NCBI GenBank assembly: GCA_965116145.1
Contig: OZ220482.1
Location: 1,916,143 to 1,980,142 of the forward strand
Source of the DNA: Thermoanaerobaculia bacterium
GTDB lineage: Bacteria; Acidobacteriota; Thermoanaerobaculia; Multivoradales; Multivoraceae
DNA length: 64,000 nt
Direction: 5' to 3'
The first letter of the stretch is position 1. Each line of letters opens with the position of its first letter. The translations under genes and the position numbers were made by a program. The notes beneath the pieces were generated by a model, which was given only the letters and a program-made list of their open reading frames with translations, was not told where the DNA came from and ran no database searches. Below are positions 4,426-53,765 of this stretch, piece by piece.

Positions 4426-4596
4426 CTAGCAGCCTGTCGCAAGGGTCACGCCGTACTCGTTTCCGCCATGCATCTCCGTCCGGCTGCGTTGCTTTTCACT
4501 CAGACATGCACGACATGCGTCGCCATGATGAAGCCTTGCCGGACGGGCGCCTGACCGCTCCCGGTGCGACACGAACGTCCGCCACGGATTGCCAGG
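4426..4596 (-). repeat. MITE-like element copy (full length, orientation B), in divergent moaC/GT2 intergenic region
   Basis: ctagcagcctgtcgc...gccatgcatctccgtccggctgcgttgcttttc...ccttgccggacgggcgcctgaccgctcccggtgcgacac...ccacggattgccagg. Shares both conserved cores and terminal inverted repeats with the 8555..8722 copy. Confidence 0.7.
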
Positions 4597-4601
4597 AGGA
4601 G

Positions 4602-5285
4602 ATGCGAGTCGCGATCGTCATGCCGGTGCTGGAGGAGGCGGCACGGGTACAGGACGCCGTCGACGCGGCCCGCGCTCACTGCGACGAACTCCTCGTCATC
4701 GACGGCGGCAGCACGGATCGGACCGCGGAACTGGCCGCCGACAGGGGCGCCCGGGTTGTCACCCTGCCGCGGGCCGGGCGCGGGCTGCAGCTCCGAACGG
4801 GCGCTGACCTGGCCCTCCGGACCGGCGCCGATGTGCTGCTCTTCCTCCACGCCGACACGCGGCTGCCGCCGGCCGCCAGGTCCGGCCTGGAGGAAGCGGT
4901 GCAGGCCGGTGCGGTCGGCGGCGGTTTCCTGATCGACTTCGAGCCGACATCGCCGCTGTTGCGGCGCGGCCGGGTCCTGGTCGATTTCCGCACCCGCCGG
5001 CTGCGTCTGCCGCTCGGCGACCAGGCCCAGTTCGCCACGGCCGCGGCCTACGCCGCCAGCGGCGGCTTCTCCGACCTGCCGATTCTCGAGGATCTCGACT
5101 TCATCGGCCGTCTCCGCCGGCAGGGACCGATCTCCATCGTCGAGCAGCGCGCGACGACGTCATCCCGACGCTTCGCCGAACGAGGCGTGGTGCGCACCGT
5201 CGCGACGAACTGGCTGATCTGGTTGCTGTTCGCGGCCGGCGTCAAGCCGACCCGGCTGGCCAGCCTCTACCCCCTGGTGCGCTGA
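4602..5285 (+). CDS. family-2 glycosyltransferase
   Basis: ATG 4602 preceded by AGGAGGAG. MRVAIVMPVLEEA..ELLVIDGGSTDRT..RGARVV is a GT-A fold N-terminus. The track N-terminal 32 aa are read-through of the upstream MITE copy. Confidence 0.7.
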   Translation: MRVAIVMPVLEEAARVQDAVDAARAHCDELLVIDGGSTDRTAELAADRGARVVTLPRAGRGLQLRTGADLALRTGADVLLFLHADTRLPPAARSGLEEAVQAGAVGGGFLIDFEPTSPLLRRGRVLVDFRTRRLRLPLGDQAQFATAAAYAASGGFSDLPILEDLDFIGRLRRQGPISIVEQRATTSSRRFAERGVVRTVATNWLIWLLFAAGVKPTRLASLYPLVR

Positions 5286-6010: not shown

Positions 6011-6107
6011 CCTGGCAGTCCGTGGCAGAAGTCCGTGTCGCACCGTCGCACCGGGAGCGGTCAGGCGCCCGCCCGGCAAGGGTGCGATAGTCGTGCATAC
6101 TGCCAGG
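6011..6107 (+). repeat. MITE-like element copy (internally deleted, orientation A) just downstream of rsmB stop
   Basis: cctggcagtccgtggcagaagtccgtgtcgcacc(gtcgcacc)gggagcggtcaggcgcccgcccggcaagg...gcatactgccagg. Left TIR plus core 1 (with an 8-bp duplication) joined to a right-TIR remnant. Confidence 0.6.
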
Positions 6108-8554: not shown

Positions 8555-8722
8555 CTAGCAGTCCGTGGCAGAAGTCGCGTGTCGCACCGAGAGCGGTCAG
8601 GCGCCCGTCCGGCAAGGCGCGAAGGTTACGCATATTGGGGCATATGTGACCGAAGAGCAACGCAGCCGGGCGGGATGCATGGCTGAAACGAATGCAACGT
8701 GACTTCTGCCACGGACTGCTAG
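8555..8722 (+). repeat. MITE-like element, full-length reference copy (orientation A)
   Basis: 168 bp. TIR ctagcagtccgtggcagaagt ... acttctgccacggactgctag. Core 1 gtgtcgcaccgagagcggtcaggcgcccgtccggcaaggcgcg; core 2 gaagagcaacgcagccgggcgggatgcatggc. Sits 20 bp upstream of fmt start. Confidence 0.8.
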
Positions 8723-11179: not shown

Positions 11180-11346
11180 CCTGGAAACCTGCCGCGGATG
11201 TGCGTGTCGCGCCGGGAGCGGTCAGGCGACCGTCCGGCAAGGCGCGGCGAGAGAACGTGCGGGGACGATTGCGACCGAGGAGCCGTGCAGCCGGGCGGCA
11301 TGCAGGGGTGCTCGCATGCGACGCGACGTTCGCCGCGGACTGCCAG
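11180..11346 (+). repeat. MITE-like element copy (orientation A) between ftsK start and ksgA stop
   Basis: cctggaaacctgccgcggatgtgcgtgtcgcgccgggagcggtcaggcgaccgtccggcaaggcgcg...gcagccgggcggcatgcag...gacgttcgccgcggactgccag. Ends 7 bp from ftsK GTG. Confidence 0.7.
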
Positions 11347-23757: not shown

Positions 23758-24162
23758 TCAGCCCGGAGCCAGCTCCGCCGTGCGGTCCGGCGCATCGGAC
23801 CACAGTCGCTCCAGCCGGTAGAGCTCCCGCCGTTCGGGGTCGAACACGTGGACAATGACATCGCCGTAGTCGAGCAGCACCCACTGCCCGCGGCCGGCCC
23901 CCTCCAGATGCAGAGGCCGGGCGCCGCCGGACCGCAGCCGCGCCTCAACGGCTTCCGCGATGGCGCTCACCTGACGCGCGTTGGCGCCGCTGCAGATGAC
24001 GAAGTAGTCCGTGAAATCGCTGACATCCGCAAGCTCCAGCACCCGCACGTCCCGAGCCTTGCGGTCAAGCGCCGCGGCCGCGGCCGCGCGGACACGATTC
24101 AGGGAGTCGCGGTGCCCGTCCGGGTCTGGCTGTGGGGCCTGGAGCGTCTGCGTTTGCGTCAA
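23758..24162 (-). CDS. rsfS: ribosomal silencing factor RsfS (Iojap)
   Basis: DYFVICSGANARQVSAIAEAV, WVLLDYGDVIVHVFDPERRELYRLERLW. Start uncertain; TTG 24162 overlaps nadD stop (TTGA). Confidence 0.8.
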   Translation of the reverse strand: MTQTQTLQAPQPDPDGHRDSLNRVRAAAAAALDRKARDVRVLELADVSDFTDYFVICSGANARQVSAIAEAVEARLRSGGARPLHLEGAGRGQWVLLDYGDVIVHVFDPERRELYRLERLWSDAPDRTAELAPG

Positions 24163-24806
24163 CGGTACAACCCGTACTTGCGACAGTACCGCAGCACGGC
24201 GGCAGGCATCAACTCGGCATCCACCTCGTCGCCGCGAGCCAGCCGCCGGCGGATGGAGCTCGAGGAAGCGTCGACCGAGCGATGCCGGATCAGGTCGAGC
24301 CCGCGGGCGCCCTCGGCCACCGCCACGACAGCAGGATCCAGCCCTCGCTCGCCCGGTCGGGCCAGGACCACCAGCCTGACAGCGCCGATCAGGTCCTCGC
24401 ACCGCCGCCACGACAGCAGGGTATTGAAGCTGTCGACGCCGAGCAGCAGGTGCAGGTCGGCAGCCGCGTCCTCCGCCGCGAAGCGTTCCACGGTGTCGAC
24501 CGTGTACATGGTGCGGCCGAGGTCGAGCTCGGCGTCCGAGACGACGAGCTCGGGCCAGGGCAGAAGCGCCAGTTCGACCATCGTGTTCCGCTTGAGCGCG
24601 GACACCTTCGTCCCCCGGGGCTTGTGCGGCGGACAGGCAGTCGGCAGATAGTGGACGACGTCCAGGCCAAGGAGCTCCCTTGCGGCAAGCACCGGCAGGA
24701 TGTGGCCGTTGTGGATCGGGTCGAAACTGCCGCCGAACAGCCCGATCTTCACGGCAGGCCCCGCGGCCGCCCGTGGCGAAGGTCTCGCTGCGCCGGCTTC
24801 AGCCAT
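24159..24806 (-). CDS. nadD: nicotinate-nucleotide adenylyltransferase
   Basis: IGLFGGSFDPIHNGH..., SSIRRRL. ATG 24806 lies inside a MITE copy; GTG 24749 (VKIGLFGG) is the alternative. Confidence 0.85.
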   Translation of the reverse strand: MAEAGAARPSPRAAAGPAVKIGLFGGSFDPIHNGHILPVLAARELLGLDVVHYLPTACPPHKPRGTKVSALKRNTMVELALLPWPELVVSDAELDLGRTMYTVDTVERFAAEDAAADLHLLLGVDSFNTLLSWRRCEDLIGAVRLVVLARPGERGLDPAVVAVAEGARGLDLIRHRSVDASSSSIRRRLARGDEVDAELMPAAVLRYCRKYGLYR

Positions 24807-24933
24807 GCATCCCGTCCGGCGGCGTTGCTCTTCGCTCACCTGTGCCCCGGCACGCTCACTCACCGCGCCCTGGCCGGAACGGGCGCCTGACCGCTCTCGG
24901 TGCGGCACGCGCGTTCACCACGGGCTGCGCAGG
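24803..24933 (-). repeat. MITE-like element copy (orientation B) in obg-nadD junction
   Basis: gccatgcatcccgtccggcggcgttgctcttc...ccctggccggaacgggcgcctgaccgctctcggtgcggcacgc...cacgggctgcgcagg. Contains the obg stop (24860) and the nadD ATG (24806). Confidence 0.7.
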
Positions 24934-25984
24934 CAACCGCCGCCTCGTCGACCAGGTCGACGGCGTCGGCCGCATCCAGGAGACGGCGCAGCTCGCGGAC
25001 AAGGCAACCCAGGCCGGCGCCTTCGACCGCCGATATCTCCAGCTTCGGCACGCCCTCCCGGCGGGCCAGCTCGGCCAGGCCGCGGCGCCGCTCCGGCGAC
25101 GCGATGTCGAGCTTCGAGCCGCACAGCAGGCGGGGTCGGCGGAGAAGATCGTCGTTGAACTCTCCCAGCTCGGCGCAGACCGTGTCGAAGGCCCCCTCGA
25201 CCGTAACGGCGGCTCCCTCCGGCTGCGGTCCCAGGTCGACCAGGTGGAGCAGGACACGGCAACGCTCCACGTGGCGCAGGAATCGGGCGCCCAGCCCCGC
25301 ACCCTGCGCCGCGCCGGCGATCAGCCCAGGCAGGTCGGCGATGACGAAGGGCTCCGCTTCGACCGGCACTGCCGGCGGACCGACGACGCCGAGCTGGGGA
25401 ACCAGCGTGGTGAAGGGGTAGTCCGCGACCCGCGGCCTTGCGGCGGTCAGCCTGCTGATGAGTGTCGACTTGCCGGCGTTCGGGAGGCCGACGACGCCGA
25501 CGTCGGCCAGCAGCTTCAACTCCAGGCGGAGACGGCGTTGCTCCCCCGGCGTTCCGGGTTCAACCCGTCTCGGCGCGCGCTGGCGTGCACTCCTGAAGCG
25601 GGCATTGCCGCGGCCGCCGGCGCCGCCGCGCGCCACCACGAGCTGTTCGTCCTCTGCCAGGACCTCGCCCAGGCGCTCACCGGTCCCGGCATCACGGACT
25701 TCGGTGCCGAGCGGCACCGGAATCACCAGGTCGCGGCCGCTCCTGCCGGTCCGGTTCGACCCCTCGCCGTGCCGGCCGCCGTCAGCCTGATATGCCGCCG
25801 GAAAGCTCAGACGATAGAGAGTGCCCAGACCCGTTGCGCCGACCAGGACGACATCACCGCCGGCGCCGCCGTCGCCGCCGGAGGGACCGCCGCGCGGCAC
25901 GAACTTCTCCCGCCGGAACGCCAGACAGCCGTCTCCACCGGAACCCGCGAGGACATCGATGACGGCCTCGTCGACGAAGTGCAT
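24860..25984 (-). CDS. obg: GTPase Obg/CgtA
   Basis: MHFVDEAVIDVLAGSGGDGCLAFRREKF, GGRGGDGG-type glycine-rich fold, G-domain GLPNAGKSTLIS, DLPGLIAGA. ATG 25984. Last ~20 aa (TESGQAPVPARAR) are encoded by the MITE copy. Confidence 0.9.
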   Translation of the reverse strand: MHFVDEAVIDVLAGSGGDGCLAFRREKFVPRGGPSGGDGGAGGDVVLVGATGLGTLYRLSFPAAYQADGGRHGEGSNRTGRSGRDLVIPVPLGTEVRDAGTGERLGEVLAEDEQLVVARGGAGGRGNARFRSARQRAPRRVEPGTPGEQRRLRLELKLLADVGVVGLPNAGKSTLISRLTAARPRVADYPFTTLVPQLGVVGPPAVPVEAEPFVIADLPGLIAGAAQGAGLGARFLRHVERCRVLLHLVDLGPQPEGAAVTVEGAFDTVCAELGEFNDDLLRRPRLLCGSKLDIASPERRRGLAELARREGVPKLEISAVEGAGLGCLVRELRRLLDAADAVDLVDEAAVACAARGERACRTESGQAPVPARAR

Positions 25985-28183: not shown

Positions 28184-28213
28184 CTAGCAGCCCGTGGTGG
28201 ACGTTCGGGTTGC
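28184..28213 (+). repeat. MITE-like element fragment (terminal repeat only)
   Basis: ctagcagcccgtggtggacgttcgggttgc, 10 bp upstream of the kinase GTG start, in the divergent intergenic region with the ABC substrate-binding gene. Confidence 0.45.
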
Positions 28214-33636: not shown

Positions 33637-34422
33637 TCAGGCCGCGTCGGCGCCGCCGGCCCGATAGCCGCGCGGATCGAGCGCCGCCTGCTCGAAGCCG
33701 AGCTCGACCAGGCGCTCTTCGATCCCGCGCCACTGCCGCTCGGCTGCAGGCAGCTCGCCCTCACCCACTTCGACGCGGGCCGAACCGCGGTCGTGGCGCA
33801 CCCTGAGCACACGGAAGCCTCGGCGCCGAAGTTCATCCTCGGCGGCCTCGATCCGGCGAAGCCGGGGGAGGGTGACGAGCTGGCCGTGCGGTATCCGCGA
33901 GGACAGGCAGGCGTTCGCCGGCCGGTCCCAGACCGTGAGGCCCAGTGCCCGCGCCAGGCGGCGGACGGCCGCCTTGGTCACGCCATGCTCCAGCAGCGGG
34001 CTGTAGACGCCTCGCTCGCGCACCGCCCGCAGGCCGGGGCGGTCCGGTCCCGGATCCGAGGCGTTCGTACCGTCGCAGACCGTGCGGAAACCCTCGCGCC
34101 TCGCCATCTCCAGCATGCGGTCCATGCGCAACCCCTGGCACACGTAGCATCGGTGCCTCGGGTTGGCCCGGAACTCCGGCTCGTCGAGCTCGCTATAGGT
34201 CAGAACCTCGTGGCGGATGCCGATCTCGGCCGCCAGCCGGCGCGCATGGTTCAGCTCCGACCCGGCAAGGGTCTCGGCCGCCGCCGTCACCGCGACCGCC
34301 CGGTCACCGAGAGCGCGCTGCGCCAACGCTGCGACCAGCCCCGAATCGACGCCTCCGGAGAAGGCAACCAGCACCGGGCCGCGGCGGCAGAGGTCCGCCT
34401 CCAGCGGTTCGAGCAGCAGCAT
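33637..34422 (-). CDS. larE: ATP-dependent sulfur transferase LarE (PP-loop ATPase)
   Basis: PP-loop VLVAFSGGVDSGLVAALA; CYVCQ; WDRPANACLSSRIPHG; RVRHDRGSARVEV; LDPRGYRAGG. Matches the COG1606/LarE family as recalled. ATG overlaps upstream stop (TGATG). Confidence 0.65.
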   Translation of the reverse strand: MLLLEPLEADLCRRGPVLVAFSGGVDSGLVAALAQRALGDRAVAVTAAAETLAGSELNHARRLAAEIGIRHEVLTYSELDEPEFRANPRHRCYVCQGLRMDRMLEMARREGFRTVCDGTNASDPGPDRPGLRAVRERGVYSPLLEHGVTKAAVRRLARALGLTVWDRPANACLSSRIPHGQLVTLPRLRRIEAAEDELRRRGFRVLRVRHDRGSARVEVGEGELPAAERQWRGIEERLVELGFEQAALDPRGYRAGGADAA

Positions 34423-34898
34423 CAGTCCCGGCCTGCGCCCAGGCCGAGCTTGCGGCGCGGAACGGCGGCGCCCCGCAGCAGAACAGGCACCGCGAACAGG
34501 ACGGCGTAGACGCCAAGGGTCAGGATCGGCACCAGCGGCATCGCCTCGACCTGTTCCCGGCGCGCCATGGACCGAACCAGGTAGAGCCAGCCCGGCGGTC
34601 CGAACAGATAGAGCACGAACAGAAGCCGGGTACGGGCCACCTGCAGAATGACGTCGTCCAGGCGGCGGCGGCCGGCGTGACGAACCGGACCCCTGCGCTG
34701 AACGTAGACGTTGCCGAAGAACCAGCCGGTGAACGCGGCCAGGATGTAGAGAGGATAGAGCGCCAGCTCGAAGGTCAGGTTCCAGCGCAGGACGCCGATC
34801 TGGGCAAGGATGCCGACCGACCACGCCGCCAGGCTGGACGAAAGGACGATCGTCTCCAGCAGTCCGTGGCGAACGTCGCGCTGCAATCGTTTCGGCAT
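34422..34898 (-). CDS. small polytopic membrane protein of unknown function (co-operonic with larE/larB)
   Basis: 158 aa, four predicted TM segments (LETIVLSSSLAAWSVGILAQIGV, LALYPLYILAAFTGWFF, LLFVLYLFGPPGWLYLV, PLVPILTLGVYAVLFAVPVLL). ATG is the second ATG of the MITE-terminal ATGCATG. Confidence 0.45.
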   Translation of the reverse strand: MPKRLQRDVRHGLLETIVLSSSLAAWSVGILAQIGVLRWNLTFELALYPLYILAAFTGWFFGNVYVQRRGPVRHAGRRRLDDVILQVARTRLLFVLYLFGPPGWLYLVRSMARREQVEAMPLVPILTLGVYAVLFAVPVLLRGAAVPRRKLGLGAGRD

Positions 34899-35022
34899 GC
34901 ATCCCGTCCGGCTTCGTTGACCTTCGGTCAGAGCCGGCCCGGTATTCTCACCCACGGCGCCGTGCCGGAGGGGCGCCCGTCCGTTGTCCGCGCGGCACGG
35001 ACGTTCACAACGGACTGCCAGG
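34894..35022 (-). repeat. MITE-like element copy (orientation B) between the membrane-protein gene start and gcvH stop
   Basis: ggcatgcatcccgtccggcttcgttgaccttc...ggaggggcgcccgtccgttgtccgcgcggcacggacgttcacaacggactgccagg. Confidence 0.7.
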
Positions 35023-35448: not shown

Positions 35449-35614
35449 CTAGCAGCCCGTGGCAGAAGTGCGCGCCGCACCGAGAGCGGTCAGGCGCCCG
35501 TCCGGCAAGGCGCGATGAACGAGCATATTGAGGTATATGTGAGAGAAGAGCAACGCAGCCGGACGGGATGCATGGCCGATCGAATGCAGCGCTACTTCTG
35601 CCACGGGCTGCGAG
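35449..35614 (+). repeat. MITE-like element copy (full length, orientation A) overlapping the 3' end of gcvT
   Basis: ctagcagcccgtggcagaagtgcgcgccgcaccgagagcggtcaggcgcccgtccggcaaggcgcg...gaagagcaacgcagccggacgggatgcatggcc...ctacttctgccacgggctgcgag. Its terminal repeat encodes the last 7 aa and the TAG stop of gcvT. Confidence 0.8.
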
Positions 35615-53693: not shown

Positions 53694-53757
53694 AAGAGCA
53701 ACGCAGCCGGACGAGCGTCTGACCGCATCTCGGTACGACGCGCCACGGACTGCTAGG
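53694..53757 (+). repeat. MITE-like element half copy (core 2 plus terminal repeat) 8 bp upstream of the DUF4390 start
   Basis: gaagagcaacgcagccggacgagcgtctgaccgcatctcggtacgacgcgccacggactgctagg. Confidence 0.55.
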
Positions 53758-53765
53758 GTCGCGCC

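What the first reader, a model, noticed from the sequence alone, without database searches (positions are those of the whole stretch)
24803..24933. MITE copy supplies both the Obg C-terminus/stop and the annotated nadD start codon
The obg reading frame runs 73 nt into the element, so the last ~20 residues (TESGQAPVPARAR*) are element-encoded. This gives a 375-aa Obg with a non-conserved tail. The same element's terminal GGGATGCATGGCTGAA provides the first in-frame ATG of nadD (MAEAG...), 17 codons upstream of the conserved VKIGLFGG N-terminus. The identical ATGCATG end also starts the membrane-protein gene at 34898. The element end therefore acts as a portable start codon, with GGGA as a possible weak Shine-Dalgarno, or annotation pipelines will mis-call starts there.
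Basis: partly seen in the sequence, partly recalled or inferred. Interest (0 to 1): 0.6.

Follow-up and report, generated by a model that had tools for sequence, protein, structure and literature searches.

The report
Mobile hairpin repeat rewrites gene ends
A roughly 167-base hairpin-forming mobile repeat landed on the overlapping obg-stop/nadD-start junction of an acidobacterial genome, giving Obg a 23-residue junk tail and offering nadD an extra upstream ATG that gene callers picked; this is a well-documented but ordinary effect of such repeats in a compact genome.

Summary
The repeat is real, but it is longer than reported. It spans about 24763-24931 on the minus strand, and ATGCATGG lies inside it, about 40 nt from its right end.

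It belongs to a ~167-nt palindromic, MITE-like family. The window holds six full copies plus fragments, and at least 15 related Acidobacteriota assemblies carry it.

Relatives without the insertion have Obg of 351-353 aa and NadD of 197-202 aa, with the obg stop overlapping the nadD start (ATGA). So the last 23 residues and the stop of this 374-aa Obg are encoded by the element.

The ancestral nadD start survives as GTG 24752. The public gene call instead uses the element's ATG 24806 (215 aa). Which start is used cannot be decided from sequence.

For the membrane gene at 34898 the ancestral ATG has gone, and every usable start lies in the element. A secreted-protein gene in a relative (L073) shows the same thing. 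The GT2 gene call starting at 4506 is a clear over-extension into another copy. GcvT also takes its last residues and stop from a copy.

This is a new member of a known kind (compare Rickettsia RPEs and Correia elements). Interest is modest.

The parts
24763..24931 (-). Repeat copy c24. Core CAGCCCGTGG...CCACGGGCGG is 24927-24767, and the 4-nt flank positions are 24931-24928 and 24766-24763. It is about 75% identical to the family consensus.
   Evidence: (E=5e-41)
24860..25984 (-). obg CDS, 374 aa (ATG 25984, stop TGA 24862-24860)
   Evidence: Pfam GTP1_OBG and MMR_HSR1 on record
24860..24931 (-). Element-encoded Obg tail CAARGERACRTESGQAPVPARAR plus the stop codon
   Evidence: Relatives end about 2 residues after the insertion point.
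24804..24810 (-). ATGCATG motif inside the right arm. ATG2 (24806-24804) is the called nadD start, and ATG1 (24810-24808) is in another frame.
24749..24752 (-). GTGA: the ancestral nadD start GTG (24752-24750) overlapping the vestigial obg stop TGA (24751-24749), which is still in the obg frame
   Evidence: Relatives have ATGA with a 4-nt overlap.
24159..24806 (-). nadD as called (215 aa). The conserved protein is 24159-24752 (197 aa).
   Evidence: (the Pfam domain starts at residue 23 of the 215-aa form)
34856..35021 (-). Repeat copy c34, flanked by CTGG on both sides. It sits at codon 4 of the membrane-protein gene.
34422..34898 (-). Membrane-protein gene. The first 13 codons (MPKRLQRDVRHGL) are element-encoded and replace the ancestral MKG.
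35449..35614 (+). Repeat copy c35, between gcvT and gcvH, antisense to both genes
35592..35614 (-). Element-encoded end of GcvT (...PKA|RSPWQK*), stop TAG 35594-35592
4426..4595 (-). Repeat copy c4, between moaC and a GT2 glycosyltransferase gene. The GT2 gene call starts inside it at ATG 4506, but the real start is ATG 4602.
8555..8722 (+). Repeat copy c8 (CTAG on both sides), between ftsK and fmt
11181..11346 (+). Repeat copy c11, between ksgA and ftsK
6012..6102 (+). Half copy c6 (left arm only), between rsmB and the HU gene

Best explanation
A non-autonomous, MITE-like palindromic element inserted into the last two codons of obg, 5-9 nt upstream of the nadD start. The element is about 167 nt, folds as one long imperfect hairpin, and usually has CTAG at both ends. 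In relatives, obg and nadD overlap at this point as ATGA, and nadD's Shine-Dalgarno sequence (GGGAG/AGGAG) lies inside the obg 3' end.

Shown:
1. The obg frame now runs on through the element's left arm to the first in-frame TGA. This replaces the last ~2 residues of an already variable tail with 23 element-encoded residues.
2. The inserted stretch is 174 nt, so the old GTGA (nadD start plus obg stop) is intact and still in the obg frame.
3. The element carries an ATG in each of its two open forward frames. In c24 one of them (24806) is in frame with nadD, and the gene caller took it.

Inferred:
1. The Obg tail is neutral junk.
2. NadD is probably still made from GTG 24752 (about 55-60%). That start has lost its ancestral Shine-Dalgarno sequence and depends on weak signals in the element's right end. 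Some initiation at ATG 24806 is possible, because the identical GGACGGGATGC-ATG context must serve as a start in sister copy c34.

The same family has remodelled other gene ends in the window: the GcvT C-terminus, the membrane-protein N-terminus, and the mis-called GT2 N-terminus.
For: - Family and copies.
- Hairpin: 94% of cells paired, and 14 pairs with changes on both sides against 6.7 in shuffles (0 of 500 shuffles reach it). Slid controls give 30-49% paired.
- Empty orthologous sites: Obg of 351-353 aa in about 30 relatives. obg and nadD overlap by 4 nt and NadD is 197-202 aa in L001-L003.
- Gene calls.
- The NadD Pfam domain starts at residue 23 of the 215-aa form.
- Sister cases: the gcvT|gcvH and gcvH|membrane spacers are 17 and 15 nt in relatives but hold c35 and c34 here. 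Membrane-protein homologues start MKGLETV. GT2 homologues start at query residue 33.
- The family is found in at least 15 related assemblies.
- SD-like pairing energies: -6.2 kcal/mol for ATG 24806, -5.8 for GTG 24752, and -7.0 for obg's own start.
Against: - No transposase partner with matching ends was found.
- The 4-nt flanks of c24 itself do not match (TGCG and CCGC).
- Because CTAG is palindromic, a target-site duplication cannot be told apart from an extension of the terminal inverted repeat in most copies.
- No expression or proteomic data exist, so the start actually used by nadD is open.
- RNA accessibility modelling did not favour either start.
- c24 alone folds no better than shuffled sequence (z = -1.3).
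Confidence: 0.85

Rival explanations
1. nadD is now genuinely translated from the element's ATG 24806, so the 215-aa call is right. The insertion cut the ancestral GTG off from its Shine-Dalgarno sequence, and the element supplies both a weak Shine-Dalgarno sequence (GGACGGGA) and an ATG.
For: - The ancestral GGGAG/AGGAG now lies about 190 nt upstream of GTG 24752.
- The same context must act as a start in c34 and does so in L073.
- SD-like pairing is -6.2 kcal/mol against -5.8 for the GTG.
- ATG is generally a stronger start codon than GTG (general knowledge).
Against: - The ancestral start codon is conserved in place, and the old GTGA is intact.
- All relatives have NadD of 197-202 aa.
- The extension is Ala/Pro/Arg-rich with GC3 of 0.61 (hand count).
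- The same stretch carries indels among copies.
- Gene callers over-extend into this element elsewhere (GT2).
Confidence: 0.4
2. The repeat is not a TIR-transposase MITE but a REPIN-like element, mobilised as a single-stranded hairpin by a RAYT (IS200/IS605-type) enzyme.
For: - The whole element is one long hairpin, with compensatory changes that keep the pairing rather than the sequence.
- It is very abundant in short extragenic spacers.
Against: - The ends are CTAG|CAG, not the GTAG or CGTC tags described for REPs (PMC3733652 abstract).
- Two copies have identical non-consensus 4-nt flanks (c34 CTGG/CTGG, L023 TCAA/TCAA), which suggests a target-site duplication.
- At 167 nt it is long for a REP doublet.
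- No RAYT gene was looked for or seen.
Confidence: 0.12
3. The repeat is primarily a functional structured RNA or operon-internal regulatory element (for example an mRNA stabiliser or processing site). Its overlap with gene ends would then be secondary.
For: - There is strong support for the hairpin, with many G-U pairs that exist only on this strand.
- Copies sit inside operons, between co-transcribed genes.
Against: - The repeat occurs in both orientations relative to the flanking genes: c24 and c34 are sense, while c8, c11 and c35 are antisense.
- It is absent from the orthologous junctions of relatives.
- Rfam gives no match even at E<=1.
- No promoter-like or terminator-like sites were found.
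Confidence: 0.08
4. The Obg tail is an ancestral, lineage-specific extension, and its similarity to the repeat is coincidental.
For: Obg C-terminal tails are variable, and a few relatives have longer ones (P0023 371 aa, P0034 362 aa).
Against: - The tail DNA aligns with the left arm of five other copies in the window and with copies in other genomes.
- The longer tails of P0023 and P0034 are unrelated in sequence.
- The flanks of the 174-nt insert match the uninterrupted junction of relatives.
Confidence: 0.01

Closest known systems
Rickettsia palindromic elements (RPEs)
   Same: Palindromic, hairpin-forming mobile repeats of about 100-150 bp whose frames are largely free of stops. They end up inside or fused to protein-coding genes without destroying them (review PMC10969869). 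Here the consensus has no internal stop in 5 of 6 frames.
   Different: RPEs are mostly inserted in frame within ORFs of AT-rich Rickettsia genomes. Here the copies sit at gene junctions and replace N- or C-termini. The sequences come from a 69% GC acidobacterium, and no sequence relationship is expected or was tested.
Correia / NEMIS elements of Neisseria, and enterobacterial RU-1/2/3 (ERIC-type) small mobile sequences
   Same: MITE-like repeats with terminal inverted repeats that fold as hairpins. They are abundant between co-transcribed genes, and some variants carry open frames found fused to host ORFs, including at the C-terminal end (PMC2229807; PMC2759123).
   Different: From memory, Correia elements duplicate TA and carry IHF and promoter motifs. 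Here the flanks are CTAG-like 4-mers and no promoter-like site was found. The host phylum differs and the family is unrelated.
IS5-family-derived MITEs (4-bp YTAR/CTAG target duplication)
   Same: Most copies are bounded by CTAG, TTAG or CTAA on both sides, and two copies have matching non-consensus 4-mers.
   Different: The link to IS5 is a recollection, not a test. No autonomous IS with the ends CAGCCCGTGG... was found in the sequence available.
REPINs (REP doublets mobilised by RAYT transposases)
   Same: Long extragenic hairpins in high copy number, with the pairing kept by compensatory changes.
   Different: There is no GTAG or CGTC tag (PMC3733652). Target duplications appear to be present. 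The RAYT association was not examined.

Membership tests
Prokaryotic MITE | Small size (about 50-500 bp) with no transposase ORF | tested here: met
   Copies are 166-170 nt. The six-frame translation gives only peptides of 55 aa or less.
Prokaryotic MITE | Terminal inverted repeats | tested here: met
   CAGCCCGTGGnnGAAGT...ACTTCnnCCACGGGCTG. Helix 1 has 19 pairs with 93% of cells paired.
Prokaryotic MITE | Target-site duplication flanking each copy | tested here: inconclusive
   Many copies have CTAG on both sides, but CTAG is palindromic and could equally be an extension of the terminal inverted repeat. c34 (CTGG/CTGG) and L023 (TCAA/TCAA) favour a 4-bp duplication. c11 (CTGG/CCAG) looks like an inverted repeat. 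The c24 flanks do not match.
Prokaryotic MITE | Many dispersed copies, in both orientations | tested here: met
   The window's 64 kb hold 6 full copies, 1 half copy and 2 or more fragments, on both strands. Copies occur in at least 15 related assemblies.
Prokaryotic MITE | Presence/absence polymorphism at orthologous sites | tested here: met
   The obg|nadD junction is empty in L001-L003. The gcvT|gcvH and gcvH|membrane junctions are empty in L107.
Prokaryotic MITE | A parent autonomous IS sharing the terminal repeats | tested here: inconclusive
   A regex search for the ends in the window and 106 loci found no pair of ends spaced at the length of an IS. Whole genomes were not available.
REPIN / RAYT system | REP units tagged by GTAG or CGTC at one end | tested here: not met
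   The ends read CTAG|CAGCCCGTGG. The definition is taken from the PMC3733652 abstract.
REPIN / RAYT system | An associated RAYT (Y1 transposase) gene flanked by the repeats | not tested
   Not searched. Only a few ORFs next to the copies were scanned against Pfam, and none of those was a transposase.
Known Rfam RNA family | A match to a curated covariance model | tested here: not met
   There was no hit at the gathering threshold in the window apart from tRNAs, and none at E<=1 for c24 or c8.
Rickettsia palindromic elements | In-frame insertion within ORFs that keeps the host protein intact | tested here: not met
   Copies here replace gene termini or sit in spacers. None in the window is an internal in-frame insertion. 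The resemblance is in how it works, not in membership.

The most novel reading that the evidence does not exclude
The right arm of the element acts as a reusable 5' gene-end cassette. It has an ATG in each of its two open frames, preceded by a weak Shine-Dalgarno-like GGRCGGGA, and it encodes an Arg-containing peptide (MAARMQRDFCHGLL) that can serve as the positively charged n-region of a signal peptide or first transmembrane helix. It has been recruited more than once in this acidobacterial clade: the membrane protein at 34898, the L073 secreted protein, and probably the L027 PSD/PSCyt protein. The near-absence of stops in the consensus may itself have been selected because it lets insertions into gene ends survive.
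Probability: 0.25. Interest if true: 0.5.

Novelty: new member of a known kind. Interest (0 to 1): 0.3.

Why it matters
- Annotation: in this 64-kb window five public gene calls carry element-derived termini (Obg, GcvT, NadD, the membrane protein and GT2). At least one (GT2) is a demonstrable over-extension. Genomes of this clade need repeat-aware start calling.
- Biology: the insertion broke a conserved translationally coupled obg-nadD junction between an essential GTPase gene and an NAD-biosynthesis gene, and separated nadD from its Shine-Dalgarno sequence. The gene persists all the same. This makes a small natural experiment on how gene ends are rebuilt after a MITE hit.
- The phenomenon itself is already known from RPEs, Correia elements and enterobacterial repeat units.

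Tried and rejected
- The look-up of encoding contigs with the window's own Obg returned nothing on record, so the source record could not be named.
About three quarters of the loci were chance matches in unrelated GC-rich genomes, so it gives no copy numbers per genome. It also biases the cross-genome sample toward conserved copies.
- I tested the idea that ribosomes finishing obg open the hairpin and so couple nadD translation, using partition-function accessibilities with and without the left arm masked. Both starts stay mostly paired either way, so the result is inconclusive and the idea was dropped.
- Promoter and terminator scans of 24600-25100 found nothing.
- Rfam found nothing.
- A search for a parent IS by its terminal-repeat pattern found nothing convincing.
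- A literature search on 'Candidatus Multivorans' returned only Burkholderia and Desulfococcus papers.
- Of the ten copies whose ATG is in frame with a long downstream ORF, four (L068/L012, L045/L028) have obvious real starts downstream. L068 and L012 even use different frames at what looks like the same site. Two more (L056, L054) look like spurious ORFs. These six were not counted as element-borne starts.

Full report
**What is at the locus**

The region is read on the minus strand and lies in a conserved gene row: rplU, rpmA, obg, nadD, rsfS, thiS, two tRNAs, tig.
- obg runs from ATG 25984 to TGA 24862-24860 (374 aa).
- The nadD open frame contains GTG 24752 (MKIGLFGGSFDPIHNGH..., 197 aa). 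It also contains, 18 codons upstream, ATG 24806 (MAEAGAARPSPRAAAGPA-VKIGLFGG, 215 aa).
- Exact-sequence look-ups show that Obg-374, NadD-215 and the 158-aa membrane protein starting at ATG 34898 are on record from a 3,728,387-bp NCBI/ENA contig. NadD-197 is not. So 'annotated start' is correct as a statement about gene calls.

**The repeat**

- The 16-mer around ATGCATGG occurs five times with up to 3 mismatches, against 0.43 expected.
- Repeat finding and alignment define a family of about 167 nt. Full copies lie at 4426-4595(-), 8555-8722(+), 11181-11346(+), 24763-24931(-), 34856-35021(-) and 35449-35614(+). There is a half copy at 6012-6102 and fragments at about 53706-53760 and about 28185-28210.
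It actually continues about 40 nt further, so ATGCATGG is internal.
- The element is one long imperfect hairpin. Copy c8 folds at -90 kcal/mol with z = -6.3. On 21 copies from the window and other genomes, 94% of cells are paired, against 30-49% for slid controls. Fourteen pairs show changes on both sides, which 0 of 500 shuffles reach.
- The consensus ends are CTAG|CAGCCCGTGG...CCACGGGCTG|CTAG.
- Rfam has no match, and no promoter-like or terminator-like site was found.

**Distribution**

A profile built from the window copies finds full-length copies in loci from at least 15 assemblies. These are labelled Candidatus Multivorans, Multivoraceae, Thermoanaerobaculia, Holophagales, Vicinamibacter* or Acidobacteria. 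Unrelated GC-rich genomes that matched the 17-mer by chance hold no copies. The closest Obg proteins (77-86% identity) come from the same group.

**Test of the Obg claim**

- About 30 close relatives have Obg of 351-353 aa. Their sequences align up to ...LRRLLDA plus about 15 variable residues and then stop. The window protein continues with CAARGERACRTESGQAPVPARAR.
- In three relatives' loci the obg stop overlaps the nadD start by 4 nt (ATGA), and NadD is 197-202 aa.
- At the DNA level the window's flanks...GCGGTTGCC and CTGCCGTGAAGATCGGGCTGTTCGGCGG, match the relatives' uninterrupted ...GGAGTTGCC-CCGCCATGAGGATGGGCCTGTTCGGCGG.
- The inserted stretch is 174 nt, so the old TGA (24751-24749) is still in the obg frame (read from the coordinates).
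The tail and stop come from the element.
- Only about 2 ancestral residues of an already non-conserved tail were lost. I infer the extension is neutral.

**nadD**

- The ancestral start codon survives in place (ATG in relatives, GTG here).
- Pfam's nucleotidyltransferase domain begins at residue 23 of the 215-aa form, which is residue 5 of the 197-aa form.
- The relatives' Shine-Dalgarno sequence (GGGAG/AGGAG, 7-10 nt before the ATG, inside obg) now lies on the far side of the insertion.
- Both candidate starts have only weak SD-like pairing: -5.8 kcal/mol for GTG 24752 and -6.2 for ATG 24806, against -7.0 for obg's own start.
- Accessibility modelling does not separate them.
- I therefore commit only to this: GTG 24752 is somewhat more likely to be the main start (about 55-60%), and the 215-aa call is a mechanical preference for the upstream ATG. 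This is inference, not demonstration.

**The 34898 gene and other gene ends**

- Membrane gene. Homologues are 148 aa and start MKGLETVILSS, 15 nt after gcvH. In the window c34 sits at codon 4, flanked by CTGG on both sides. The stretch where ATGAAGGGC should be reads GCCGGGCAGAC. The only in-frame canonical starts before the conserved LETIVLSS are GTG 34955, ATG 34898 and TTG 34886, all within the element. The protein is otherwise 76-83% identical to homologues without frame breaks. So here the element must supply the start. c34 is also the only copy with a 1-nt deletion just after ATGCATG, and this deletion puts that ATG in frame.
- L073, a Holophagales MAG. Homologues of a secreted protein carry their own Met, n-region and LLAALLLAAPLAA. 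In L073 the element-encoded MAARMQRGFCHGLL replaces that n-region, and there is no other in-frame start for 71 codons.
- L027. A PSD/PSCyt protein looks like a third case.
- GT2. The call of 259 aa from ATG 4506 inside c4 is on record, whereas the 227-aa form is not. Yet homologues across 1.8 billion representatives align from query residue 33 to their own residue 1, which corresponds to ATG 4602, preceded by AGGAGG. This is a clear over-extension.
- GcvT. The annotated protein ends ...PKARSPWQK*, where relatives end ...PKAGA*. The last six residues and the TAG come from c35, read in reverse orientation.

**Why the element is so often 'read'**

In the consensus, forward frames 0 and 2 are fully open and frame 1 is closed only by the terminal TAGs. 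Frame 2 holds ATG1, and frame 0 holds ATG2 and a third ATG. Any downstream gene whose frame stays open into the right end therefore meets an ATG. Ten of the 20 copies that carry the motif show this. About four of those ten have obvious real starts downstream, and two look like spurious ORFs.

**Classification and novelty**

- The element meets the MITE criteria of size, terminal inverted repeats, copy number, both orientations and empty orthologous sites.
- The target duplication is only suggestive, and no parent IS was found.
- It does not carry the REP tags of REPINs.
- Fusion of MITE-borne frames with host genes, including at termini, is documented for Correia elements, enterobacterial RU elements and Rickettsia RPEs.
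- This is therefore a new member of a known kind, probably an undescribed family. It is of modest interest, mainly for annotation quality, and as a clean example of a broken coupled junction and of recurrent start-codon donation.

Noticed in passing
window 35592-35614 (- strand) within copy c35 35449-35614: GcvT's last six residues and its TAG stop are supplied by a copy lying antisense to the gene. Relatives end ...PKAGA*, while the window ends ...PKARSPWQK*. The 376-aa form is the public gene call.
   Followed up: yes
window 4506-4602 (+ strand), copy c4 4426-4595: The GT2 glycosyltransferase gene call (259 aa) starts at an ATG inside the repeat. Homologues and an AGGAGG motif point to ATG 4602 (227 aa), so the 32-residue extension is spurious.
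   Followed up: yes
L110:1160-1254 (gcvT|gcvH spacer of a relative): A left-half copy of the element lies in the same spacer and the same orientation as c35 in the window. L107 has an empty 17-nt spacer there. This is either an old shared insertion, partly deleted, or a recurrent hit.
   Followed up: partly
L107/L108/L109:2466-2533: A right-half remnant of the element (with GGGATGCTTGG) lies inside the 5' end of the 292-aa call of the PP-loop ATPase gene that follows the membrane gene. The same gene is called at 264 aa in L110 and 261 aa in the window. This is probably another over-extended start, in relatives.
   Followed up: partly
window 33637-34902 (- strand): ATG1 of the c34 motif (34902) opens a 421-aa ORF that runs out of frame across the whole membrane gene into the PP-loop ATPase gene. 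It is not in the protein collection. The real 261-aa gene starts at ATG 34422 and shares one base with the membrane gene's stop (TGATG).
   Followed up: yes
L068:5836-6005 and L012:4471-4637: Two different assemblies share a copy with near-identical left flanks, upstream of a 666-codon ORF. That ORF is in frame with ATG1 in one assembly and ATG2 in the other, so there is a net 4-nt indel between the element and the gene. The real start is probably the conserved GTG (V[NS]LWPPPRR).
   Followed up: partly
window 53706-53760 (-) and 28185-28210 (+): Short remnants of the element: an internally rearranged left arm, and a solitary left terminal repeat (GCTAGCAGCCCGTGGTGGACGT).
   Followed up: no
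alignment A4 (21 copies from the window and other genomes): Several stem positions are conserved as U-G or G-U pairs (columns 21/166, 32/157, 34/155, 49/140, 55/134, 60/127). These would be A-C mismatches on the other strand, so the hairpin is more stable on the strand that carries ATGCATGG. No explanation was tested.
   Followed up: no
family consensus (166 nt): Five of six reading frames have no internal stop, and the only other stops come from the terminal CTAGs. In 70% GC sequence about one stop per frame is expected. The palindromy makes the frames non-independent, so this is only mildly unusual.
   Followed up: partly
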